From Candidatus Spechtbacterales bacterium (GTDB lineage: Bacteria > Patescibacteriota > Minisyncoccia > Spechtbacterales > 2-12-FULL-38-22): 64,000 nucleotides of DNA. The notes under the pieces are model-generated. The model was not told the origin of the DNA, searched no databases, and saw only the letters and a program-made list of their open reading frames with translations. The first letter of the stretch is position 1, and every line of letters starts with the position of its first letter. The DNA lies in contig JBBDXP010000007.1 in assembly GCA_040902285.1 (NCBI GenBank), positions 1,042-65,041 of the forward strand, read 5' to 3'. Of the stretch, positions 2,071 through 39,436 are shown in pieces. A program made the position numbers and the translations under genes.

Positions 2071-2667
2071 ATGAACAAAATTTTAATTGCGGGTCTGGGA
2101 AACCCCGGAAAACAATATAAGAATACTCCTCATAATATAGGTTTTGAGGTGCTGGACAGATTATTGGAGGCCTTCGAAAACGGTGGCGGCGCAATAAAAG
2201 AAACTCACGCCCGTGAAGCTGCTGTTTGGGAGCTGTCAACGGAAAACACAAAACTTATACTGGTAAAACCTTTACTTTACATGAATCTCTCCGGGATTCC
2301 CGTAAGCCGGGTGGCCAAAAGCCATGAAATAGATGAATCTAACTCTCTTTGGATAGTACACGATGATGTGGACCTGGACGCCGGAGTTATAAAAGTTAAA
2401 AAAGGCGGGCGAAGCGCCGGGCATAAGGGCGTGGAAAATATAATAAAAGCTCTTGGAAAAAATGATTTCTGGAGATTTAGAGCGGGCATAAGGCCGGCCG
2501 ATTCTCCTGCAAAAAGGCCTCCGGGATTTATGGAAGAATTCGTGACAAAAAAACTTCTTGGCGAGGATTTAAAAACAATGCGCAAATCGGCGGATGTATG
2601 CGCCGAGATGGTATTGGAATCACTGGAAAATGGGATTAGGAATAAAAAAAGGATATTAGGAGTGTGA
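2071..2667 (+). CDS. pth: peptidyl-tRNA hydrolase
   Basis: MNKILIAGLGNPGKQYKNTPHNIGFEVLD is the classic Pth N-terminus. Confidence 0.9.
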   Translation: MNKILIAGLGNPGKQYKNTPHNIGFEVLDRLLEAFENGGGAIKETHAREAAVWELSTENTKLILVKPLLYMNLSGIPVSRVAKSHEIDESNSLWIVHDDVDLDAGVIKVKKGGRSAGHKGVENIIKALGKNDFWRFRAGIRPADSPAKRPPGFMEEFVTKKLLGEDLKTMRKSADVCAEMVLESLENGIRNKKRILGV

Positions 2668-2713
2668 AATAAAAAACTTTACATATAAAAAATAAATGTT
2701 ATAGAAATATAGC

Positions 2714-4684
2714 GTGGACACAAAACAGGTAAAATCCGCAGGAATAGTCCGCATATCCCCCCATATATTAAAAAGGGGGCAATTTTGGTTTGAAAAAAAC
2801 GAAGGCAAAATAAAATCCGAGGCCAAAAAAATAACAAGCTGGTGGAACTCAAATTATAGAAGTATTCAGGTTGACGAAAAATTTCCGCTTGGCGCTATGC
2901 TAAGACAATTAGATGATTGGGGTTATATAAAAACCTCGTTTGTAAAAAGTCCCGGAGAATTCGCGTCAAGGGGCGGGATAGTTGATGTGTTTCCGGTTAA
3001 CTTAAAAAACGCTGTTCGTTTTGAATACTTTGGAGACCTGATAACATCCATCAGTGTTTTGGAAAATGTCTTAAATAAAAATCCCCAAGAAGAACTTAGG
3101 AAAATAATTTATCGTTATCCCGAATCGGCAAAGAGCGGGAAGGCGGAAAATAAAATTCCGGCCAATTTTAAAATAGGCACATTTGTGGTGCACATAGACC
3201 ACGGAATTGCGAGGTTTGCGGGTATGGAAAAAGAAGAATTGATGGTGCTTGAATACGCGAAAGGAGACCGTTTACTTGTGCCAATTTCTGTTTCTGAAAA
3301 AGTATCGCCATATTTGGGATTCGGAGAGCCCAAATTAACGCGCCTGGGCGGCAATATTTGGGAAAAAACAAAAAGAAAAGTTAAAGAAGACCTTGTAAAA
3401 ACAGCGAAACATCTGGCAAAAATATATGCCAAGAGAGAAATGACGTTGAGGCCGGCGTATAACCCGGATATTGATGTTGCCGGCATAGGCGCGGAAACCT
3501 TTGAATACATGGAAACGCCGGGGCAAATCCAGGCCATAGAAGATATAAAAAAAGATTTTTCCAGAACAAGGCCCATGGACAGGATAATCTGCGGAGATGT
3601 GGGTTTTGGAAAAACAGAAGTTGCCATAAGAGCGGCCAGCTATGCGGTGGGGGCGGGATATCAAGTCGCTATAATAACGCCTACCACTGTTTTGGCGCAT
3701 CAGCATTTTAAAACATTCCAAAAAAGATTAGAGCAATCTTCGTATCCGCTTAACGTCGAAAAATTAACCCGCATAGAAAAGCCCGCCGAACAAAAAACAA
3801 TAAAAGAAGACATAAAAAATAACAAATGTGATATTGTTATAGGAACGCACCGGCTTTTACAGAAGGACATAGAATTCAACCGCTTGGGTTTGCTTATAAT
3901 AGACGAGGAGCAGAAATTTGGCGTTAAACAGAAAGAATTTTTTAAAGAAAAAAGATCCGAACTGGATGTGCTTTCTTTATCCGCCACCCCCATTCCCCGG
4001 ACTTTGTATTTTGCGCTTAACGGCATACGCGACCTGAGCATAATTTCGACACCTCCCGTGGGAAAAAGACCAATAAAAACTTTTGTAAGGCCCAAGAGTA
4101 AAAAAATAATCAAGCAGGCAATAGAGAAAGAACTTGGGCGAAACGGACAAATTTATTATCTTCATAACCGGATAGGTTCCATGCCGCTTGCCGCGGAAAA
4201 TTTGAAGCAACTGGTACCCTCGGCTAAAATTGAATACTTGCACGCTAAAATGCCGGAGGAAAAGATTATAGAGATTATGGATAAGTTTGAAAGCGGAAAA
4301 ATTGATGTATTAATGGCAACCACTATAATGGAAAACGGATTGGATTTCCAAAACGCGAATACCCTTATAGTGGAAAACGCGACCGGCCTAGGCCTTGCAC
4401 AAGCCCACCAAATAAGAGGAAGAATAGGCCGGAAAAACAAACAGGCGTACGCGTATTTTCTGTATCCGGGAAAGAAAATGAAAGGCAAGGCGAAAAAACG
4501 TATGCTGGCGCTTGAAGAGGCCGACTACCTTGGAGCGGGGTATGAAGTAGCCATGAAAGACCTGGAAATAAGAGGAGCCGGAAATTTACTGGGCCGGGAA
4601 CAAAGCGGAAATATTGCAAAGGTTGGCTTTAATTTGTATTGCCAGATGCTTGCTGAAGCATTAGAAGAATTACGCTCTGCGTAA
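2714..4684 (+). CDS. mfd: transcription-repair coupling factor, short form lacking the N-terminal UvrB-homology module
   Basis: An RNAP-interaction-domain-like segment (FKIGTFVVHIDHGIARFAG) is present. The SF2 helicase motifs are GDVGFGKTEVAIRAA and DEEQKFG, followed by a C-terminal translocase region. At 656 aa it is far shorter than the usual ~1100-aa Mfd. Confidence 0.75.
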   Translation: MDTKQVKSAGIVRISPHILKRGQFWFEKNEGKIKSEAKKITSWWNSNYRSIQVDEKFPLGAMLRQLDDWGYIKTSFVKSPGEFASRGGIVDVFPVNLKNAVRFEYFGDLITSISVLENVLNKNPQEELRKIIYRYPESAKSGKAENKIPANFKIGTFVVHIDHGIARFAGMEKEELMVLEYAKGDRLLVPISVSEKVSPYLGFGEPKLTRLGGNIWEKTKRKVKEDLVKTAKHLAKIYAKREMTLRPAYNPDIDVAGIGAETFEYMETPGQIQAIEDIKKDFSRTRPMDRIICGDVGFGKTEVAIRAASYAVGAGYQVAIITPTTVLAHQHFKTFQKRLEQSSYPLNVEKLTRIEKPAEQKTIKEDIKNNKCDIVIGTHRLLQKDIEFNRLGLLIIDEEQKFGVKQKEFFKEKRSELDVLSLSATPIPRTLYFALNGIRDLSIISTPPVGKRPIKTFVRPKSKKIIKQAIEKELGRNGQIYYLHNRIGSMPLAAENLKQLVPSAKIEYLHAKMPEEKIIEIMDKFESGKIDVLMATTIMENGLDFQNANTLIVENATGLGLAQAHQIRGRIGRKNKQAYAYFLYPGKKMKGKAKKRMLALEEADYLGAGYEVAMKDLEIRGAGNLLGREQSGNIAKVGFNLYCQMLAEALEELRSA

Positions 4685-4699
4685 TTCTTCTAATGCTTC
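4655..4699 (+). terminator. perfect 21-bp stem-loop overlapping the mfd stop codon
   Basis: GAAGCATTAGAAGAATTACGC pairs with GCGTAATTCTTCTAATGCTTC around a TCT loop. There is no U-run directly after it, so intrinsic-terminator function is uncertain. A tandem GTAGTAAGTAG repeat and a second small hairpin with a T-rich tail follow. Confidence 0.45.
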
Positions 4700-4766
4700 A
4701 AGTGAGTAGTAAGTAGTTGGTAGTAAGTAGTAAAAATAAAAAACACCCTTTTGGGGTTTATTCTTC

Positions 4767-5435
4767 ATGGGGTCGCGAGTTAAAAATTACAATATGAAAT
4801 TAAAATTAAAAATAAAACTCATTGCTTTTGATGTAAACGGAACGATATTGAACGACTTCGATATATTTAGCAACGCGCTAAATAGTATTTTTGATTATTT
4901 TAAAAAGCCCCGTATGAGTGAGGTGCAATTTCGCGATGAATTTACCCAGCCCTGGACCGATATTTACAGAAAAAGAGGTATTTTAGAAGATGTGGCATCG
5001 GAAAAATTTTTATATACTTTATATAATAAAGCATATCAAGCCCAAGATGATCCAAAACCATTTAGCGATTTGGAGCCAGTATTAAAACAAATACAAAAGC
5101 GTGGGTTAACCACTGCCATAATAACTACTCAGCAAAACATTATCACGGACGCGCTTTTGAATAAATATGATTTGGGTAAATATTTTGATTTTCACTTAGG
5201 GGGCGTGGCAGATAAAACCAAAGCATTGCAAAAATTAATAGAAAAGGTAAACATACAACCAAAGCAGACGATGTATATTGGCGACCAAGACAGCGACATG
5301 CGCTTTGCAAAAAACGCATCATGTATTGCTGTGGGTTTCACGGGCGGAACGCACTCAAAACAAAAACTGCAAAAAGCGGGCGCGGATTATATAATTGATA
5401 ACTTTACAGAGCTTGTTAATTTATTAGATATATGA
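4767..5435 (+). CDS. HAD-superfamily hydrolase (phosphatase)
   Basis: IAFDVNGTI (motif I DxD-like) and GDQDSDM (motif IV) are present. Confidence 0.65.
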   Translation: MGSRVKNYNMKLKLKIKLIAFDVNGTILNDFDIFSNALNSIFDYFKKPRMSEVQFRDEFTQPWTDIYRKRGILEDVASEKFLYTLYNKAYQAQDDPKPFSDLEPVLKQIQKRGLTTAIITTQQNIITDALLNKYDLGKYFDFHLGGVADKTKALQKLIEKVNIQPKQTMYIGDQDSDMRFAKNASCIAVGFTGGTHSKQKLQKAGADYIIDNFTELVNLLDI

Positions 5436-6316
5436 AAAACTCTATTTTTGAATTAAAAATTACCGACGCCGAATATCCAAAAATACTAAAGGAAATCCCC
5501 CACCCCCCAAAACTTTTATATTACAGGGGCGATTTGGACGCATTGAACAAGCAACCCGCAATCGCGGTAGTCGGAACAAGAAGATGTTCGGAATACGGAA
5601 AAGAAACAACTAAAAAAATTGTCTCGGGGCTGGCAAAAGCGGGAGTGTGCATAGTAAGCGGAATGGCCAGGGGCATAGATTCATACGCGCATAAAGAAGC
5701 TATAGAAAATGGCGCGCTTACCGTAGCGGTACTCGGCTCTCCGGTTGACGATGAAGAAATATATCCCCAATCAAATGTTAAGCTGGCACACAAAATAATA
5801 GAATCGGGGGGCATTGTTTTGAGCGAATATAAAAAAGGCGAACCCGGACACCCCGGACAGTTTCCGGCAAGGAATAGAATAGTTGCGGGGCTCTCTGGAG
5901 GCACGCTTGTAACGGAGGCACCCATAAAAAGCGGCGCCATGATAACGGCGCGCCTGGCGCTGGACAGCAACAGAGATGTGTATGCGGTTCCCGGAACGAT
6001 ATTTTCGTATCTTTCGGCGGGTTGTAATAAATTGATAGCAAGCGGAGCTAAATGCGTAATGAGCCCGGAAGATATACTGGAGGACCTGGGCTTAAATTAT
6101 GAAATAAGCATAGACGGACTGAAAAATACGGATAATTTAGATGAAGCGGAATTAAAAATTTTAAATGTAATAAATAAATCGCCAAACGCCGTACATATTG
6201 ACCAACTTACCAGAAGTGTTGGGCTTGATACAGAAAAGGTATCGCAAGCAGTAACATCGCTGATGCTGCAGGATTTGATAAAAGAATCAGGCGCAAATTC
6301 ATACATTGCCTTATGA
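5432..6316 (+). CDS. dprA: DNA processing protein DprA (Smf)
   Basis: AIAVVGTRRCSEYG...SGMARGIDSYAHKEA matches the DprA Rossmann core. The dprA-topA adjacency is conserved. Confidence 0.85.
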   Translation: MKNSIFELKITDAEYPKILKEIPHPPKLLYYRGDLDALNKQPAIAVVGTRRCSEYGKETTKKIVSGLAKAGVCIVSGMARGIDSYAHKEAIENGALTVAVLGSPVDDEEIYPQSNVKLAHKIIESGGIVLSEYKKGEPGHPGQFPARNRIVAGLSGGTLVTEAPIKSGAMITARLALDSNRDVYAVPGTIFSYLSAGCNKLIASGAKCVMSPEDILEDLGLNYEISIDGLKNTDNLDEAELKILNVINKSPNAVHIDQLTRSVGLDTEKVSQAVTSLMLQDLIKESGANSYIAL

Positions 6317-33670: not shown

Positions 33671-35320
33671 TTAATTTGATACCGTTGTTTCTCCTATATT
33701 TTGCTCCAGAAAAAGTCCCGTGTATGTGTCTATGCCCGTTAATTTTGTTTGAAGCAAAAGAACTGTATTCGCGCCCTTTGCGTTGGCAGGAGTCGGTTCT
33801 ACGCCTATGCTGAATTCTATTTGCTCGGCGGGGTAAATGTAGCCCAACCCATTTGCGGCCGTGTCCAGAGTCCAAACAACGGTATTTGTTGACGGCACAT
33901 ATCTTATCTCGCCATTGGTGGCGCTGGACTCCCCCATCCACGAAGCGTATGCGGGCAAAGCGGCCTCTATTTTAAGAGACCTTGCCGGATTTATGGTATT
34001 TTTAACGATCCAGCGCACGGTATAGGTTGATAGTGTTCCGGCCTGAGGAGGATGCGGTCCCTGCTGGGAAAACTTCCCTCCCCTATACACATCCTGCTCT
34101 AATTCCAAATCCGTAGATATCTTTAAACTTACAGATTCCCGCGCCTGTAAAACCTTGCCGTCTAAAACAATTGAATCGAAAAAGGTTTCCATAAAAATAT
34201 TCTTATTTTTATCAGATTCGCTTTTGGATATAAGACCCTCTGCAACATTGAACGAAACAAAAACGCCCCCGCTTTCGTCAATATCCACAAATTTAAGATC
34301 AGGCGTGTTTGCGACATTCCATTCAATAACGCTCTCGGCGGCGTTATAATCTCCGTTTGTGTACAAAGTAGAAAAATCTATCAAACCTTTTGGCAAAGAA
34401 GTTTTTATAATCGCATCCTTAACCAGAAATTCGGACTTGTTTATATAAAATATCCCCATTTCAACCCTGGTGCCCGCTTTTATTTCACCGTTAGGTGGAG
34501 ATAATAACCGATGTTCCAAAATAATCGGCACGTCTGTAATTTCAACCGTAGCTTCAGCGGAATTAAGAGGAATAAATCTGACTCCGTTCAGTATGCCGAG
34601 CTGGACTCCGAATACCGGGTTTTCTGTTTTCGGTAAAAGCGTGCCTCTGAATTCTCTTTTTATGGTCTGCCCACTCTTTAAGCTGCCTAATTGCCACACG
34701 GTATCGTAATAAAAATCAGTGCTCCTATATGTTATATTAAACCCCTCGGGAACATTCAGTTTTAAGAATATGGGAGAAATCTCTATATCGGAATTAGCGG
34801 TTAGATTTATGGTTCCTTCGACCTCCTGACCCTTATACACCTTTTTGGGCATATCAAGAGATATGGACGCGTCAAAGCTTCCTATCACCACCTCCAAGGA
34901 AGCCGTCGTGACAAATCTTGCCGAAACGCCTCTTGGAGAATAATCAACGCGAGCATTGATTATTTCCGTGTTTTTTATGCTGGAAGCGGTCAAAGAAAAC
35001 TCAATCGACTGTTCTTGACCCGGGGGCACATTGCCGAACCCCTCATCAAGTGCGTCCCTGCTCCCCGATATTTTAAGCGATTCGGGAACGTCAAACGACA
35101 AGTTTATCTCTTCCAACTCTTCGGGAGAATTATTTTTGACAACAATATGGAATTTTTCCGTTTTGCCGTTTTCTATTTGGGAAGGTCCTTCTATATGCAA
35201 GGACACATTGCGCGTAGAAAAGTCGCCCCTCTCCATCCACACAAAAACAGCCAGACCTAAAAGCGCAAGGAGAGATAGCGGCATTAAATGCCATGCTTTT
35301 AATTTAAATCCTATTTTCAT
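33671..35320 (-). CDS. large secreted/cell-surface hypothetical protein with repeated beta-sandwich (DUF11/CARDB-like) modules
   Basis: An N-terminal signal/TM segment is followed by a repetitive beta-rich composition. No catalytic motif is present. Confidence 0.4.
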   Translation of the reverse strand: MKIGFKLKAWHLMPLSLLALLGLAVFVWMERGDFSTRNVSLHIEGPSQIENGKTEKFHIVVKNNSPEELEEINLSFDVPESLKISGSRDALDEGFGNVPPGQEQSIEFSLTASSIKNTEIINARVDYSPRGVSARFVTTASLEVVIGSFDASISLDMPKKVYKGQEVEGTINLTANSDIEISPIFLKLNVPEGFNITYRSTDFYYDTVWQLGSLKSGQTIKREFRGTLLPKTENPVFGVQLGILNGVRFIPLNSAEATVEITDVPIILEHRLLSPPNGEIKAGTRVEMGIFYINKSEFLVKDAIIKTSLPKGLIDFSTLYTNGDYNAAESVIEWNVANTPDLKFVDIDESGGVFVSFNVAEGLISKSESDKNKNIFMETFFDSIVLDGKVLQARESVSLKISTDLELEQDVYRGGKFSQQGPHPPQAGTLSTYTVRWIVKNTINPARSLKIEAALPAYASWMGESSATNGEIRYVPSTNTVVWTLDTAANGLGYIYPAEQIEFSIGVEPTPANAKGANTVLLLQTKLTGIDTYTGLFLEQNIGETTVSN

Positions 35321-35908: not shown

Positions 35909-38900
35909 TTATTTTTTTATTATGCCTATTTTCATGTTGCCTCTGCCGTAATCTTCCGCTGCCCAGGGAAATTCCGCGGTTGCGTCATATTTTTTGCCGT
36001 CTAAACTATATTCCATTATCTTGGATGTGTTTGTATCTGAAATTATCCTGCTTTCCATTTTATACAAAGTTCCGCGCAACTGTTCCGGTAAAGAATAATG
36101 CACTATTATTTTTTTATCGGGCTTTAGGCCTAAAGATTTTCTTAATTTTTGTATGTGCCTTATAATTTCTCGCACCTGTCCCTCGAGCACTAAATCGGGA
36201 GATAAAACCGTTTTTAGCGCTGTGTTTCCGGCGTTAGTTTTTTCATATGCCCAATCTTTTTTATTTTTTATATTTGGCGATAAAACAATCTCTCTTACAT
36301 TCAGTTCTTCTTTTAGAAGAACTTGGTATTGTTTTTCCATACCTTTGGGCACGGCAAAAGATTCCAGGGGCTGACGAACTTTTATGGAATTTTCGGCTCT
36401 TAATTTTAATCCTGTTCCGGCCAGCTCTCTTACAAGTTCCATTTTATCCAACGCGCTCTTTTCCGCCTTTGATAATTTTTTGTAAACCGGAAATTTTTCC
36501 CAATGCACGCTCTTTGAATCGTCCGCGTTTACTTCCTGCCAAATATGTTCGGAAAGAAACGGGATAAAAGAGGCCGACATCTTGGATGTTTCGCCTAAAA
36601 CAAATGCCAATGTTCCGGCGGCGTCTTTAAGCGAATTTTTATCTTCGGGCCTCTGTAATCTTTCGCGGGAACGCCTTATGTACCAATTTGAAAGGTCTTC
36701 CACAACAAAATTATCCAACCCACGAGCCGCGTCAAGCACATTATACGCATCCATATTGCCGGCTGTTTTTTCTCCAAGTTCCCTTAAGCGCAACAGTATC
36801 CATTTGTCCAAAATATGTTTTGAATTTATTTTATTAATCAATTTGGGCGCTTTTTGCTTTGGCGCGTATGTTTTGAGAAAAACAAGAGAATTGTACAGTG
36901 TGGAAATAAATTTCTGCATGCGCTCCCGGACATCTTTTTCACTGAAGCGTTTAACAAACCCGGGACCGTTAACCGTAAAAAAGTACCATCGGACAGAATC
37001 CATTCCGTATTTTTCGGCCAAATAAAAAGGATCTACTATATTACCTTTGCTTTTAGACATTTTTTGGCCTCTTTCGTCCAAAACATGTCCTAAAGATATA
37101 ACATTTTTATAAGATGGCGCCTTTCCAAGAACCGCCGAAACGGCAAGCATTGTATAAAACCATCCCCTTGTCTGATCCACAGCTTCGGCTATATAATCGG
37201 CCGGATATATTTTTCCTTTTTCCAAATTTCTTTTATTTTCAAAAGGATAATGCGCCTGCGCAAAAGGCATCGCGCCCGAATCAAACCACACATCGGCCAA
37301 ATCCTCCACCCTGCGCATTACGCCGTTTTCGGAATTGCAAGCGGTACAAGGAAAATTTATAGCGTCTATATACGGCCTGTGAAAATCCAATTCTCCGAAC
37401 TTGTTGTAAGGAAACTTGCTGTATTTTATTTTACGCAGCCGGCCCACAAGCGGATAATTCTTGCTCCTTCTTGCAAATGCTTCTTTGGTTGTAAGACCCA
37501 AAAGCGCGCTTTCCAATAGCCATAAAGGGTCTCCATGGCTAATTATCAATATCTTTTTATTTTTATATTTGTTTTCCAGTTCGTTCGCGACTTTCAGCAT
37601 GCGCGCCTGAACGCTTATAAGGTTTTCGCCTTTCGGCGGAGCTTTGGTAAACCTTTCTTCGGTAGAAGAAAAAATGCCAAGATAATCCTTTTCAGAGTGG
37701 CCTTCAAAAATTCCTACGCTCACATCGACAAGGCGTTGATCATAAATAACTTTTTTTCCAAGCTCTTTTGCCACAATTTCCGCAGTTTGACGAGTGCGGG
37801 TTAGTGGAGATGCAACGATAATATCAACGCCGCCCAGTTTTTTAAGCTCCTTTGTCGCGCGCCTTATATCATTTATGCCCTTTGGGATTAGGCCATATTT
37901 GAGCCCCTTTTCGGGATATCTGCTTGCCAGTATGTTTTTAACGTTTCTTTCCGACATGCCATGCCTTAAAAAATAGTATTTATTCGCGCTCTTTGTCATT
38001 TTTGCTATATCCGCGCGCGAACCTATAACTTCTGTGTGTGCGCATTCGGCGCATTTCCATATGGGAAGAGGGGTGCCCCAATATCGGGAGCGTGAAAAAG
38101 CCCAATCCTTAACATCGCGCAGCCACTCCCCGAATCGCCCCTGCTTTATATATTCGGGAAACCAATTTATTTTTTCATTTGCCGCAAGCAGCGTTTTTTT
38201 AAGGTCGCCCATGCGCACAAACCATGATTGCATCGCGTAGTAAAGAAGAGGCGTGCCGCATCTCCAGCAAAAAGGATACGAGTGTTTGTAAGGAGAGGAT
38301 TTGTATAACAAATCTTTCGTTTTCAAATAATCTATTATTCCGGTCTCGGCGTTTTTTACGAATTGTCCCTTAAAATCTTTTACCCTGTCTGTAAAAAGGC
38401 CGTTTTCATCTACGGTGTGAATTTTTGGAAGGTCGAACTTTTCAGCCAATTTATAGTCGTCTTCTCCATACATAACGGCCGTGTGCACGATACCCGTACC
38501 GTCTTCCGTGCTGACAAAATCCGCATTCACAACTATGTGCTTGTTTACCGAATCAACGTCCTTAAGAGAATCGAACAGTGGCTCGTACTCAATATTCATG
38601 GCGGACAGTTCTTTTCCAGATATCTCCTTTACAAGCTCGTACTTTCCGTTCAAAACGCTCAGCAAATCTTTTGCCAAAATGTAATATTCATTCCCCTGCT
38701 TTGCTATAACATAAGTTATTTTAGAACCCACTGCCAAAGCCACATTTCCGGGCAATGTCCAGGGAGTTGTTGTCCAGGCCAAAAGATATGTCTTTGCCTT
38801 AAAATTATAAGAGGACGGATTTTTAACCCTGAATTTTACAAAAACCGATTCTTCCACAATGTCTTTATACCCCTGCGCCACCTCGTGAGAAGAAAGTCCC

Positions 38901-39436
38901 GTGCCGCATCTCGTGCACCTGGGGGTTACTTTGTGCCCCTCATAAAGAAGATTATTTTCCCAGGCATTTTTAATAACCCACCAAAGCGTTTCCATGTATA
39001 AAGGGTCATAAGTTATATACGGATCTTTCATATCTATCCAAAAACCCATTCTTTCGGTTAAAAATTCCCAATCGCTCTTATATTTCCAAACGGATTGGCG
39101 GCATTTTTCATTGAATCTCGCTACTCCGTATTTTTCTATGTCTTTTTTATTCTTTAATCCCAATGCCTTTTCCACTTCCAGTTCCACGGGCAATCCGTGC
39201 GTGTCCCAGCCGGCCCGCCTCTCAACTCTAAAACCGCGCATTGTTTTATAGCGGCATACTATGTCTTTAAAAGAACGTGCCAGAACATGGTGCAGTCCGG
39301 GCCTTCCATTCGCAGTCGGGGGACCTTCATAAAATATAAATTGCCTTTTTTTCGGCCTTCCCGAAACGCTTTTTTCAAATGCTCCGATGCGTTTCCAGTT
39401 TTCCAATATCCTGTTTTCGAGTTTGTTAAAATCCAT
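35909..39436 (-). CDS. ileS: isoleucyl-tRNA synthetase with a histidine-phosphatase-like domain inserted in the zinc-knuckle loop
   Basis: It has HHVLARS HIGH-like, KMSKS (QKMSKSKGN) and WCISR-like motifs. Total length is 1175 aa. Between WKCAEC (aa ~461-466) and CTAC (aa ~697-700) lies a ~220-aa insert with YYFLRHGMSE and ILIISHGDP motifs. Confidence 0.9.
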   Translation of the reverse strand: MDFNKLENRILENWKRIGAFEKSVSGRPKKRQFIFYEGPPTANGRPGLHHVLARSFKDIVCRYKTMRGFRVERRAGWDTHGLPVELEVEKALGLKNKKDIEKYGVARFNEKCRQSVWKYKSDWEFLTERMGFWIDMKDPYITYDPLYMETLWWVIKNAWENNLLYEGHKVTPRCTRCGTGLSSHEVAQGYKDIVEESVFVKFRVKNPSSYNFKAKTYLLAWTTTPWTLPGNVALAVGSKITYVIAKQGNEYYILAKDLLSVLNGKYELVKEISGKELSAMNIEYEPLFDSLKDVDSVNKHIVVNADFVSTEDGTGIVHTAVMYGEDDYKLAEKFDLPKIHTVDENGLFTDRVKDFKGQFVKNAETGIIDYLKTKDLLYKSSPYKHSYPFCWRCGTPLLYYAMQSWFVRMGDLKKTLLAANEKINWFPEYIKQGRFGEWLRDVKDWAFSRSRYWGTPLPIWKCAECAHTEVIGSRADIAKMTKSANKYYFLRHGMSERNVKNILASRYPEKGLKYGLIPKGINDIRRATKELKKLGGVDIIVASPLTRTRQTAEIVAKELGKKVIYDQRLVDVSVGIFEGHSEKDYLGIFSSTEERFTKAPPKGENLISVQARMLKVANELENKYKNKKILIISHGDPLWLLESALLGLTTKEAFARRSKNYPLVGRLRKIKYSKFPYNKFGELDFHRPYIDAINFPCTACNSENGVMRRVEDLADVWFDSGAMPFAQAHYPFENKRNLEKGKIYPADYIAEAVDQTRGWFYTMLAVSAVLGKAPSYKNVISLGHVLDERGQKMSKSKGNIVDPFYLAEKYGMDSVRWYFFTVNGPGFVKRFSEKDVRERMQKFISTLYNSLVFLKTYAPKQKAPKLINKINSKHILDKWILLRLRELGEKTAGNMDAYNVLDAARGLDNFVVEDLSNWYIRRSRERLQRPEDKNSLKDAAGTLAFVLGETSKMSASFIPFLSEHIWQEVNADDSKSVHWEKFPVYKKLSKAEKSALDKMELVRELAGTGLKLRAENSIKVRQPLESFAVPKGMEKQYQVLLKEELNVREIVLSPNIKNKKDWAYEKTNAGNTALKTVLSPDLVLEGQVREIIRHIQKLRKSLGLKPDKKIIVHYSLPEQLRGTLYKMESRIISDTNTSKIMEYSLDGKKYDATAEFPWAAEDYGRGNMKIGIIKK

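What the first reader, a model, noticed from the sequence alone, without database searches (positions are those of the whole stretch)
37339..38029. Histidine-phosphatase (RHG) domain inserted inside the zinc knuckle of isoleucyl-tRNA synthetase
IleS is 1175 aa long. Between the two halves of its zinc-binding knuckle (WKCAEC ... CTAC, just before the DVWFDSG segment) sits a ~220-aa module. That module carries the hallmark motifs of the histidine phosphatase superfamily (PGAM/SixA/PhoE branch): YYFLRHGMSE (the RHG catalytic His), ASPLTRTRQTA and ILIISHGDP (second His). In ordinary IleS enzymes this loop is only a few dozen residues. An aaRS carrying a complete phosphatase fold is unusual. It could hydrolyse a phospho-metabolite or nucleotide such as Ap4A/(p)ppGpp-type products, act on a phospho-protein, or moonlight in signalling. 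The insert is in frame and flanked by intact IleS sequence, so it is not a gene fusion artefact of the ORF caller.
Basis: partly seen in the sequence, partly recalled or inferred. Interest (0 to 1): 0.78.

Follow-up and report, generated by a model that had tools for sequence, protein, structure and literature searches.

The report
Phosphatase domain nested inside isoleucyl-tRNA synthetase
The isoleucyl-tRNA synthetase of this tiny-genome (Patescibacteria) bacterium carries a complete, apparently active phosphatase enzyme spliced into one of its zinc-binding loops; relatives keep the same phosphatase either inside the synthetase or as the gene next to it, a conserved and apparently undescribed partnership whose substrate is unknown.

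Summary
Confirmed. ORF 35909-39436 (-) encodes a 1175-aa type-2 IleRS. Its second zinc knuckle (C462/C465 ... C697/C700) is interrupted by about 200 aa that form a full branch-1 histidine phosphatase (Pfam His_Phos_1, E=2.6e-29; AF2 plus Foldseek match PspA/PhoE).

It is not a chimera or a one-off. All 120 best IleS homologues carry the domain, as do 76 of the 80 best GTDB species loci, at the same site. R491, H492 and H634 are invariant, R547 is kept in 119/120, and residue 571 is always Asp or Glu. Linker lengths are fixed.

The nearest stand-alone relatives (~190 aa) lie next to an insert-less ileS in 9 of 10 testable loci, eight of them directly upstream, in the window's synteny. Other Patescibacteria place such domains at other IleRS sites, in tandem, or in the homologous loop of ValRS.

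Best reading: an active phosphomonoesterase recruited as a dedicated partner of class Ia synthetases. dPGM, PspA, CobC and SixA identities all fail their tests. The substrate is unknown; candidates are adenylation by-products such as PPi, a nucleotide or tRNA-end phosphate, or a phosphoprotein. Nine literature searches found no description. Interest is high; this is a new variant of a known kind.

The parts
35909..39436 (-). ileS ORF, 1175 aa: type-2 isoleucyl-tRNA synthetase with a nested phosphatase
   Evidence: One search gives the ORF. TIGR00392 ileS scores 851.5 bits against a cut-off of 621.4; tRNA-synt_1, His_Phos_1, Anticodon_1 and DUF5915; 100% identical to P0121 from a Candidatus Spechtbacterales MAG.
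38042..38059 (-). First half of the zinc knuckle, W460-K-C462-A-E-C465
   Evidence: One search gives the coordinates. C462 and C465 are kept in 120/120 homologues. They align to T. thermophilus IleRS residues 461/464.
37985..38041 (-). N-side knuckle strand and linker, aa 466-484
   Evidence: No length variation in 120 homologues (gap fraction 0.000). pLDDT is above 90 in the full-length AF2 model.
37457..37984 (-). Histidine phosphatase (branch 1) domain, aa 485-660
   Evidence: Pfam PF00300, E=2.6e-29. AF2 core pLDDT above 90. Foldseek matches to PspA, PhoE, HFP and S. pombe dPGM, with TM 0.70-0.75 normalised to the target.
37958..37966 (-). R491-H492-G493: phosphate-binding Arg and the predicted nucleophilic His
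   Evidence: R is kept in 120/120, H in 120/120 and G in 117/120. The motif aligns to RHG of E. coli GpmA.
37796..37798 (-). R547, the second phosphate-binding Arg (SPLTRTRQTA motif)
   Evidence: Kept in 119/120. Aligns to GpmA R62.
37724..37726 (-). D571, the predicted general acid (position of Glu89 in dPGM)
   Evidence: Always acidic: 88 Glu and 32 Asp among 120 sequences. Aligned by hhalign.
37535..37537 (-). H634, the second active-site His (ISHGDP motif)
   Evidence: Kept in 120/120. Aligns to GpmA H184.
37349..37456 (-). C-side linker and return strand, aa 661-696 (GRLRK strand, FPYN motif, LDFHRPYID)
   Evidence: Gap fraction is 0.001 over aa 661-683. D684, H686, P688 and D691 are invariant. 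LDFHRPYID is native IleRS sequence, also present in insert-less IleS.
37337..37348 (-). Second half of the zinc knuckle, C697-T-A-C700
   Evidence: One search gives the coordinates. Both Cys are kept in 120/120.
37274..37294 (-). DVWFDSG motif of the IleRS catalytic domain, directly after the knuckle
   Evidence: One search gives the coordinates. D715, W717, D719 and G721 are invariant.
37049..37063 (-). KMSKS loop (aa 792-796)
   Evidence: One search gives the coordinates. K792, M793, S794, K795 and S796 are invariant.
39287..39298 (-). Class I signature motif in its non-canonical form G47-L-H-H50 (GXHH instead of HXGH)
   Evidence: Read from the sequence and the alignment. The meaning of GXHH comes from PMC10485003.
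39447..41042 (-). argS, the upstream neighbour. Only 10 nt separate it from ileS, which is the slot occupied by the stand-alone phosphatase gene in relatives
   Evidence: One search gives the Pfam assignment. Searches show the argS-phosphatase-ileS order in relatives.

Best explanation
This is the housekeeping type-2 IleRS of a Spechtbacterales (Patescibacteria) bacterium. A complete branch-1 histidine phosphatase is inserted at the tip of its second zinc-knuckle hairpin, the site equivalent to Cys461/464/502/504 of T. thermophilus IleRS. Short linkers of fixed length hold it there.

Shown here:
- The insert has an autonomous PhoE/PspA-like fold.
- Its full catalytic set is conserved: R491 and H492 (nucleophile), R547, an acid at 571 and H634.
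- The host keeps its own signature, KMSKS, editing and zinc-site residues.
- The phosphatase family is tied to ileS across the phylum, either nested at this site or as a gene next to an insert-less ileS, usually directly upstream and often with a 4-nt stop/start overlap.
- Related domains entered other IleRS sites, tandem arrays, and the homologous loop of ValRS.

Inferred:
- The domain is an active phosphomonoesterase that uses the usual two-step phospho-histidine mechanism.
- It has been selected to operate beside class Ia synthetases as an accessory activity, rather than being a passenger.

My working guess for the chemistry is that it removes a phosphate-bearing by-product or blocker of the adenylation/aminoacylation cycle. 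My estimates over all outcomes are about 0.15 for PPi or another adenylation by-product, about 0.15 for a nucleotide or tRNA-end phosphomonoester, and about 0.1 for a phosphoprotein, including IleRS itself. The substrate is not determined.
For: Identity and fold.

Catalytic residues: invariant or near-invariant in 120 nested copies and in 98 mostly stand-alone copies.

Purifying selection: the domain is 44% identical to the window on average, between the catalytic core (62-64%) and the anticodon/C-terminal part (39%). The linkers have no indels.

Structure: the full-length AF2 model has pLDDT 93.1 and pTM 0.88, with blocks of 92-98 across aa 460-700, linkers included.

Distribution: 120 of the 120 best IleS homologues carry PF00300. 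At least 468 GTDB species loci encode a relative. Of the best 80, 76 are nested at the same site.

Gene neighbourhood: 9 of 10 testable stand-alone genes are adjacent to an insert-less ileS, 8 directly upstream on the same strand and 1 convergent, in the same smpB-argS-[phosphatase]-ileS-recO synteny as the window. ATGA overlaps occur in L001, L003 and L004.

Recurrence:
- Tandem nested copies occur in L063.
- Insertions at three further IleRS sites, with 2-3 domains per protein, are seen in P0301, P0314, P0385, P0348, P0363 and P0366.
- 69 of 119 ValRS relatives from Gracilibacteria/Peregrinibacteria carry the domain. 62 of those 82 domains are in the loop homologous to the IleRS knuckle.

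Other hosts in the same subfamily are also adenylate-forming enzymes: ArgRS, TsaC/Sua5 and ATP sulfurylase.
Against: No biochemical data exist, and the substrate cannot be read from the sequence.

One stand-alone gene (P0111, L087) is not next to ileS, so the protein can work unlinked.

Insertions at several different sites, and tandem arrays, argue that exact geometry relative to the synthetic site is not essential.

The by-product (PPi) idea has specific problems:
- It does not explain why only IleRS and ValRS, among about 20 PPi-producing synthetases, host the domain.
- A canonical inorganic pyrophosphatase is reported in Peribacteria and in a Gracilibacterium (PMC4736985; PMC6851277).
- PPi hydrolysis is documented for branch-2 enzymes but, as far as I found, not for branch 1.
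- The ATP-sulfurylase fusion has Gln at the acid position.

The nearest characterised relatives act on free small metabolites. No model coordinates were available, so the orientation of the phosphatase pocket relative to the IleRS active site or the tRNA is unknown.
Confidence: 0.5

Rival explanations
1. Passenger enzyme. The phosphatase is an ordinary housekeeping metabolic phosphatase, such as a phosphoserine, sugar-phosphate or cofactor-precursor phosphatase. Its gene happened to lie in the argS-ileS operon of an ancestral Patescibacterium. Genome compaction then fused it into insertion-tolerant class Ia synthetases. It works on free metabolites and has no mechanistic link with aminoacylation.
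For: The closest solved relatives are small-molecule phosphatases: PspA, PhoE, HFP, CobC and GpgP.

The stand-alone form exists, and one copy sits away from ileS.

Multiple insertion sites and tandem copies show that precise geometry is not needed.

Aminoacyl-tRNA synthetases are known as preferred hosts for domain insertion (PMC13114784).
Against: Nested insertion into an essential enzyme cannot arise by simple read-through. Yet it recurred at several IleRS sites and, independently, at the homologous loop of ValRS.

Among the best 150 family representatives, 75 contain an IleRS or ValRS part and 71 are short stand-alone proteins. Of the remaining 4, three are fused to other adenylate-forming enzymes and one is a tandem phosphatase. 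No unrelated host protein appears.

Linker lengths are fixed in 120 sequences.

Equivalog models for PspA, CobC, GpmB and dPGM all score far below their cut-offs.
Confidence: 0.3
2. Regulatory or sensor module. Domain insertion couples the phosphatase allosterically to the ligand state of IleRS or ValRS (Ile/Val, ATP, uncharged tRNA). Branched-chain amino-acid sufficiency would then be translated into dephosphorylation of a signalling protein or nucleotide. Alternatively, the domain reverses inhibitory phosphorylation of the synthetase itself, comparable to toxin kinases of the HipA type that phosphorylate GluRS/TrpRS (from my own knowledge).
For: Branch 1 includes protein phosphatases (SixA, PGAM5, Sts-1; general knowledge).

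Insertion into a loop next to the DVWFDSG active-site motif, with rigid linkers, is the classical architecture of an allosteric switch.

The restriction to the Ile and Val enzymes would make sense for a branched-chain amino-acid signal.
Against: The stand-alone and multi-site forms cannot all be allosterically coupled.

The SixA model scores 23.3 against a cut-off of 74.5.

No kinase or signalling gene is conserved in the neighbourhood.
Confidence: 0.1
3. Catalytically dead structural domain. The fold is kept only as a tRNA-binding or scaffolding module.
For: A few family members have lost catalytic residues. P0309/P0398 have RAG instead of RHG. P0389 has Gln at the acid position.
Against: R491, H492 and H634 are invariant, R547 is kept in 119/120, and residue 571 is always acidic in the 120 nested copies. 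The RH[GAS] motif is kept in 81 of 82 ValRS-nested copies.
Confidence: 0.04
4. Artefact. The insert results from an assembly chimera or a mis-called ORF.
For: None found.
Against: The reading frame is continuous and GC content is continuous. The same architecture at the same site appears in 120 database proteins from many sources and in 76 GTDB species loci.
Confidence: 0.005

Closest known systems
Type-2 (eukaryote-like) IleRS: T. thermophilus 1ILE and P. megaterium IleRS2 8C8U-8C9D
   Same: The host protein aligns colinearly over its whole length (E about 1e-230 to 1e-242). It has the same four-Cys knuckle before DVWFDSG, an editing domain and the DUF5915-type C-terminus. Its GXHH signature variant is described for natural IleRS2 (PMC10485003).
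   Different: The solved enzymes have about 35 residues between the two halves of the knuckle. The window has 231, containing a second enzyme.
Small branch-1 histidine phosphatases: PspA (4IJ5), PhoE (1H2E), HFP (9MMH), CobC (6E4B) and GpgP (4PZA)
   Same: The fold matches (Foldseek TM 0.70-0.75 on the target, E about 1e-12 to 1e-14). The catalytic set is the same: RHG, a second Arg, an acid and a second His. The size is about 190 aa.
   Different: Sequence identity is only 18-25%. None of the NCBIfam equivalog cut-offs is reached. The family has its own motifs (NxY[FY][IL]LRHG, the YPWP loop in stand-alone members, and ILI[IV]SHGDPLW) and its own genomic habit, inside or beside ileS.
Bacterial ProRS INS editing domain versus free-standing YbaK/ProXp; AlaRS editing domain versus AlaX (from my own knowledge)
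   Same: An accessory hydrolase is found in some lineages nested in the synthetase and in others as a separate protein.
   Different: Those domains are aminoacyl-tRNA deacylases with a known proofreading role. This one is a phosphatase, a chemistry with no known role in aminoacylation.
IleS with a nested N-acetyltransferase domain (NCBIfam NF040702, ileS_w_GNAT)
   Same: Another curated case of IleS carrying an extra enzymatic domain. This shows that IleRS tolerates such insertions.
   Different: The inserted fold is different. The window scores 319.7 against a cut-off of 1999. I did not examine its insertion site.
Bifunctional RNase H / acid phosphatase (Rv2228c type, NF005567)
   Same: A branch-1 phosphatase fused to a nucleic-acid enzyme. 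It is the second-best NCBIfam phosphatase hit (81.6-85.4 bits).
   Different: That is an end-to-end fusion, not a nested one. The score is far below the cut-off of 326, and the partner enzyme is different.

Membership tests
Histidine phosphatase superfamily, branch 1 (Pfam PF00300) | Profile match above Pfam's gathering score | tested here: met
   102.7 bits against 21.7, E=2.6e-29, aa 488-657, profile positions 2-170 of 194.
Histidine phosphatase superfamily, branch 1 (Pfam PF00300) | RHG motif with the nucleophilic His, a second Arg, a second His and an acidic proton donor | tested here: met
   R491/H492/G493, R547, H634 and D571 are present. They are conserved 120/120, 120/120, 117/120, 119/120, 120/120 and 120/120 (acid as Glu or Asp) respectively. 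They align to GpmA R10/H11/G12, R62, H184 and E89.
Histidine phosphatase superfamily, branch 1 (Pfam PF00300) | The alpha/beta fold of the family | tested here: met
   In the AF2 segment model the core pLDDT is above 90. Foldseek against the PDB gives PspA, PhoE and dPGM as top hits with probability 1.00.
Histidine phosphatase superfamily, branch 1 (Pfam PF00300) | Phosphatase or mutase activity through a phospho-histidine intermediate | not testable with these tools
   This needs enzyme assays.
Cofactor-dependent phosphoglycerate mutase (dPGM) | Mutase-specific residues (E. coli GpmA R90, Y92, K100, R116, R117, N186) and the insertion at about residues 100-150 | tested here: not met
   hhalign aligns R90 and Y92 to Ile and Leu in the family consensus (Val in the window) and N186 to Asp. 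The 100-150 segment is absent. NCBIfam dPGM_arch scores 81.7 against 225.
Phosphoserine phosphatase PspA / alpha-ribazole phosphatase CobC / SixA | NCBIfam equivalog cut-off for the whole protein | tested here: not met
   PspA scores 52.6-56.7 against 350. CobC TIGR03162 scores 60.3-64.5 against 162.9. SixA scores 23.3 against 74.5.
Isoleucyl-tRNA synthetase, type 2 | Equivalog model score, and colinearity with solved IleRS2 structures | tested here: met
   TIGR00392 scores 851.5 against 621.4. 8C8W gives E=1.4e-242 and 1ILE gives 5.4e-230.
Isoleucyl-tRNA synthetase, type 2 | Class I signature motifs, editing-domain motifs and the zinc-site cysteines | tested here: met
   GLHH (the GXHH variant) and KMSKS are present. 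WTTTPWTLPGN and GTGIVH are present. C174/C177/C390/C393 and C462/C465/C697/C700 are invariant.
Isoleucyl-tRNA synthetase, type 2 | Isoleucine-specific aminoacylation of tRNAIle | not testable with these tools
   Inferred from orthology and synteny only.
IleS with nested GNAT domain (NF040702) | Model cut-off | tested here: not met
   319.7 against 1999. The inserted domain is a different one.

The most novel reading that the evidence does not exclude
Patescibacteria have added a previously unrecognised enzymatic step to the work of class Ia aminoacyl-tRNA synthetases. A dedicated histidine phosphatase is built into IleRS or ValRS, or encoded beside ileS. It acts on something produced at, or bound to, the synthetase: PPi or another adenylation by-product, a phosphate on a tRNA end, or a phosphorylated form of the enzyme. 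Phosphate hydrolysis would then be part of how these reduced symbionts keep Ile/Val charging running or regulated.
Probability: 0.3. Interest if true: 0.88.

Novelty: new variant of a known kind. Interest (0 to 1): 0.8.

Why it matters
Aminoacyl-tRNA synthetases are among the best-studied enzymes, and no step of aminoacylation or editing is known to need a phosphatase. Here a catalytically intact phosphatase is kept inside or beside IleRS in hundreds of Patescibacteria species. It also arose independently in the homologous loop of ValRS. That pattern points to an unrecognised need in the translation apparatus of these ultra-small, host-dependent bacteria, and it makes the question directly testable with recombinant protein.

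There is a practical side too. NCBI's pipeline labels these proteins only 'class I tRNA ligase family protein'. JGI labels some stand-alone phosphatases 'isoleucyl-tRNA synthetase'. Automated metabolic reconstructions of these genomes may therefore miscount both IleRS and PGM-like enzymes.

The pair of alternative states, nested or adjacent, at one conserved locus is also a clean natural system for studying how domain insertion evolves.

Tried and rejected
1. Assembly chimera or ORF artefact: rejected.

2. dPGM identity: the mutase-specific residues and insertion are absent, and the model score is below its cut-off.

3. PspA, CobC, GpmB or SixA identity: all are below their curated cut-offs.

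4. 'The phosphatase replaces a missing inorganic pyrophosphatase': not supported. Papers report a PPase in Peribacteria and in a Gracilibacterium, two groups whose IleRS/ValRS carry the domain. That is uninformative for 64 kb.

5. A search with the insert alone returned only stand-alone proteins plus one 320-aa fragment. It did not return even the window's own protein. This is a limit of that tool's candidate selection. The distribution therefore had to come from the full-length search, the GTDB scan and the representative library.

6. Direction and number of nested/adjacent transitions: two NJ trees disagree.
- In the phosphatase tree, 122 of the 130 copies classed as stand-alone (proteins of 400 aa or less, including the IleS fragment P0001) group in one clade that also holds 22 nested copies.
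- In the IleS-body tree, the adjacent-type enzymes are scattered among nested ones, with 5 Fitch changes.
- Internal branches are very short and sampling is biased, so this is left unresolved.

7. The afdb50 fold library was unavailable.

8. No model coordinates or PAE are returned, so the distance between the two active sites could not be measured.

9. Nine full-text literature searches, plus reading of IleRS phylogeny papers, found no mention of a phosphatase in IleRS or ValRS.
Full report
OBSERVATION

The minus-strand ORF 35909-39436 encodes 1175 aa.
- WKCAEC at aa 460-465
- YYFLRHG at aa 487-493
- ASPLTRTRQTA at aa 542-552
- ILIISHGDP at aa 629-637
- CTAC at aa 697-700
- DVWFDSG at aa 715-721

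Pfam finds tRNA-synt_1 split in two, Anticodon_1, DUF5915 and, between the two halves, His_Phos_1 at aa 488-657 (E=2.6e-29, 102.7 bits against a gathering score of 21.7). NCBIfam calls the host IleS (TIGR00392, 851.5 bits against a cut-off of 621.4).

The best solved relatives are P. megaterium IleRS2 and T. thermophilus IleRS. When aa 481-680 are removed in silico, the protein aligns colinearly to both with only a 5-6 residue gap. Window C462/C465 then fall on T. thermophilus residues 461/464. From memory of Nureki et al. 1998, this is the second zinc site of that enzyme (Cys461/464/502/504). GC content is continuous across the junctions.

WHAT THE INSERT IS

An AF2 model of aa 450-710 has a core pLDDT above 90. 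Foldseek against the PDB returns small branch-1 histidine phosphatases as top hits: PspA 4IJ5/4IJ6, S. pombe dPGM 1FZT, HFP 9MMH and PhoE 1H2E. E-values are about 1e-12 to 1e-14, and TM is 0.70-0.75 normalised on the target.

The full-length AF2 model has mean pLDDT 93.1 and pTM 0.88. Blocks across aa 460-700, both linkers included, score 92-98.

In an alignment of the 120 best IleS homologues (48-100% identical), conservation is as follows:

| Residue | Conservation |
|---|---|
| R491 | 120/120 |
| H492 | 120/120 |
| G493 | 117/120 |
| R547 | 119/120 |
| position 571 | always acidic (88 Glu, 32 Asp; Asp in the window) |
| H634 | 120/120 |
| the four knuckle Cys | 120/120 |

The domain is on average 44% identical to the window. 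That lies between the catalytic core (62-64%) and the anticodon-binding/C-terminal part (39%). The two linkers (aa 466-484 and 661-683) show essentially no length variation. So the domain is under purifying selection as an enzyme and is built in at a fixed length.

WHICH PHOSPHATASE IT IS NOT

The mutase-specific R90, Y92 and N186 are replaced, and the 100-150 insertion with K100, R116 and R117 is missing. The NCBIfam equivalog models all score far below their cut-offs: dPGM_arch 81.7/225, PspA 52.6/350, CobC 60.3/162.9 and SixA 23.3/74.5. It is therefore a phosphatase-type member of unknown specificity.

HOW WIDESPREAD IT IS

The window protein is identical to a database protein from a Candidatus Spechtbacterales MAG, which NCBI names only 'class I tRNA ligase family protein'. 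All 120 best homologues carry PF00300. They come from Spechtbacteria, Wildermuth-, Yanofsky-, Pace-, Jorgensen- and Nealsonbacteria.

Of the best 80, 76 have the domain flanked by IleS N- and/or C-terminal parts at the same site. These come from many Parcubacteria-type groups and also from Magasanik-, Doudna- and Buchananbacteria. In the library of 1.84 billion representative proteins, 304 clusters match the family profile at E<=1e-30. An assembly artefact is excluded.

THE KEY CONTEXT RESULT

A search with the insert alone found that its nearest relatives (38-48% identity) are stand-alone Patescibacteria proteins of about 190 aa. I looked up or recovered ten of these with enough flanking DNA.

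| Protein (locus) | Position relative to ileS |
|---|---|
| P0073 (L001/L002, Ca. Microsyncoccus archaeolyticus), P0012 (L003), P0040 (L004), P0102 (L005), P0085 (L088), and loci L075, L081, L082 | immediately upstream of an insert-less ileS (complete copies 934-980 aa), same strand |
| P0077 (L086) | adjacent but convergent |
| P0111 (L087) | elsewhere, beside secA |

L083 is cut by the contig end and could not be tested. In L001, L003 and L004 the phosphatase stop codon overlaps the ileS start codon (ATGA).

The surrounding synteny is IF3-L35-L20 / smpB / argS / [phosphatase] / ileS / recO / DUF11-type protein / class II synthetase. It is the same as in the window, where argS and ileS are only 10 nt apart and the phosphatase sits inside ileS instead.

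Insert-less IleS enzymes keep the knuckle (CxxC ... CxxC or CxC) with a loop of about 35 aa. No nested locus carries a second copy upstream, and the window has no other copy. The same locus therefore exists in two alternative states, nested or adjacent.

WIDER PATTERN

Other Patescibacteria repeat the theme in different ways.
- L063 and several representatives have two nested domains in tandem.
- P0363 is from Candidatus Peribacteria. It carries two domains in tandem at the position where the knuckle would be, as do P0348 and P0366.
- P0385, P0301 and P0314 carry two or three domains at other sites. These are just after the second CxxC, after WF(D/E)SGxMP(F/Y)A (window about aa 727-743), and between the catalytic and anticodon-binding domains (window about aa 857-875). 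P0385 keeps an uninterrupted knuckle.
- P0252 is a ValRS fragment with four such domains.
- Among 119 relatives of P0252, mostly Gracilibacteria and Peregrinibacteria, 69 carry at least one domain. 62 of the 82 domains sit directly after WWGHxIPxW, the loop homologous to the IleRS knuckle. RH[GAS] is kept in 81 of the 82.

Among the best 150 representatives of the family, 75 contain an IleRS or ValRS part and 71 are short stand-alone proteins. The other four are:
- an ArgRS with the phosphatase fused to its C-terminus;
- a tandem phosphatase;
- a TsaC/Sua5-phosphatase fusion (a singleton);
- a phosphatase-PUA-ATP sulfurylase fusion, with three cluster members on contigs up to 114 kb but Gln at the acid position.

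MECHANISM

Shown here:
- The insert is a folded phosphatase with an intact catalytic set.
- It is fixed into the knuckle tip of a synthetase that is itself intact.
- The family has a phylum-wide, recurrent association with class Ia synthetases.

Inferred:
- It is an active phosphomonoesterase with H492 as nucleophile. R491, R547 and H634 hold the phosphate, and D571 acts as the acid.
- The association is selected rather than accidental. Nested insertion cannot arise by read-through, yet it recurred at several IleRS sites and independently in ValRS, and the family shows almost no other hosts.

The substrate is open.

One candidate is a by-product common to all the host enzymes. IleRS, ValRS, ArgRS, TsaC and ATP sulfurylase are all ATP adenylyltransferases that release PPi. 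Removing PPi would favour all of them. This idea fits the stand-alone, multi-site and tandem forms. Histidine-phosphatase-superfamily enzymes of branch 2 do cleave phosphoanhydrides (PMC7926622; PMC13573052).

Several points count against it:
- Canonical pyrophosphatases are reported in Peribacteria and in a Gracilibacterium.
- I found no branch-1 precedent for PPi hydrolysis.
- It does not explain the restriction to the Ile and Val enzymes.

Other candidates are a nucleotide or tRNA-end phosphomonoester (a 3'/2' phosphate on A76, the 5' phosphate, or pAp-like compounds), or a phosphoprotein, including the synthetase itself.

I put about 0.5 on 'an active phosphatase functionally coupled to the synthetase', about 0.3 on 'a housekeeping passenger', about 0.1 on a regulatory switch, and below 0.05 on a dead domain.

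EVOLUTION

Two NJ trees disagree on how often, and in which direction, the nested and adjacent states interconverted.
- In the phosphatase tree, 122 of the 130 copies classed as stand-alone (proteins of 400 aa or less, including the IleS fragment P0001) group in one clade that also contains 22 nested copies.
- In the IleS-body tree, the adjacent-type enzymes are scattered among nested ones, with 5 Fitch changes.

Internal branches are short and sampling is biased, so this stays unresolved. Exchange of whole locus variants by recombination between conserved flanks is one possibility.

COMPARISON AND NOVELTY

The host is an ordinary type-2 IleRS with the natural GXHH signature variant. The guest is an ordinary-looking branch-1 phosphatase. 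The combination is the unusual part.

The nearest conceptual parallels are accessory hydrolases that exist either nested or free, namely ProRS INS versus YbaK and AlaRS versus AlaX (from my own knowledge), and the curated 'IleS with GNAT domain' family NF040702.

Nine full-text searches and two recent IleRS phylogeny papers contain no mention of a phosphatase in IleRS or ValRS. The sequences are public but, as far as I can tell, undescribed. I rate this a new variant of a known kind, with interest 0.8.

Noticed in passing
window 39287-39298 (-), aa 47-50: The class I HIGH signature is GLHH, the non-canonical GXHH form. Brkic et al. 2023 (PMC10485003) link this form to mupirocin hyper-resistance in IleRS2. 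The top PDB hit 8C8W is their engineered GVHH mutant.
   Followed up: partly
L063 (ORF 2145-6251, 1368 aa); proteins P0348, P0363, P0366, P0301, P0385, P0314: Some IleRS proteins carry two or three histidine phosphatase domains, either in tandem at the knuckle position or at three other sites. P0385 keeps an uninterrupted knuckle. P0363 is from Candidatus Peribacteria.
   Followed up: partly
proteins P0252, P0399-P0517: ValRS of Gracilibacteria/Peregrinibacteria often carries 1-4 nested histidine phosphatase domains (69 of 119 relatives). Most sit in the loop homologous to the IleRS knuckle, directly after WWGHxIPxW.
   Followed up: partly
proteins P0309/P0398 (1030 aa): This is an IleS-like protein without an editing domain. 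Its HIGH region is degenerate, and RAG replaces RHG in the nested domain. It may be a pseudo-enzyme paralogue or come from a highly degraded genome.
   Followed up: no
proteins P0249, P0323, P0389: Members of the same phosphatase subfamily are fused to ArgRS (C-terminal read-through of the argS-phosphatase pair), to TsaC/Sua5 and to ATP sulfurylase. All of these hosts are adenylate-forming, PPi-releasing enzymes. The ATP-sulfurylase fusion has Gln at the acid position.
   Followed up: partly
L003, L075, L081, L082 versus L001, L004, L005: Two flavours of insert-less IleS follow the stand-alone phosphatase gene. One has DxWF(D/E)SG and is 45-49% identical to the window. The other has NPWLDAGI and is 36-38% identical. 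The phosphatase-ileS adjacency therefore spans two divergent IleS lineages.
   Followed up: no
window 35909-39436; database names: Annotation pipelines mislabel both partners. NCBI calls the nested IleS 'class I tRNA ligase family protein'. JGI calls two stand-alone phosphatases (P0014, P0119) 'isoleucyl-tRNA synthetase'.
   Followed up: no
window 33671-35320 (-): A 549-aa protein with an N-terminal hydrophobic segment and weak DUF11/CLIPPER-type hits is conserved downstream of recO in the same synteny in most related loci. Its function is unknown.
   Followed up: no
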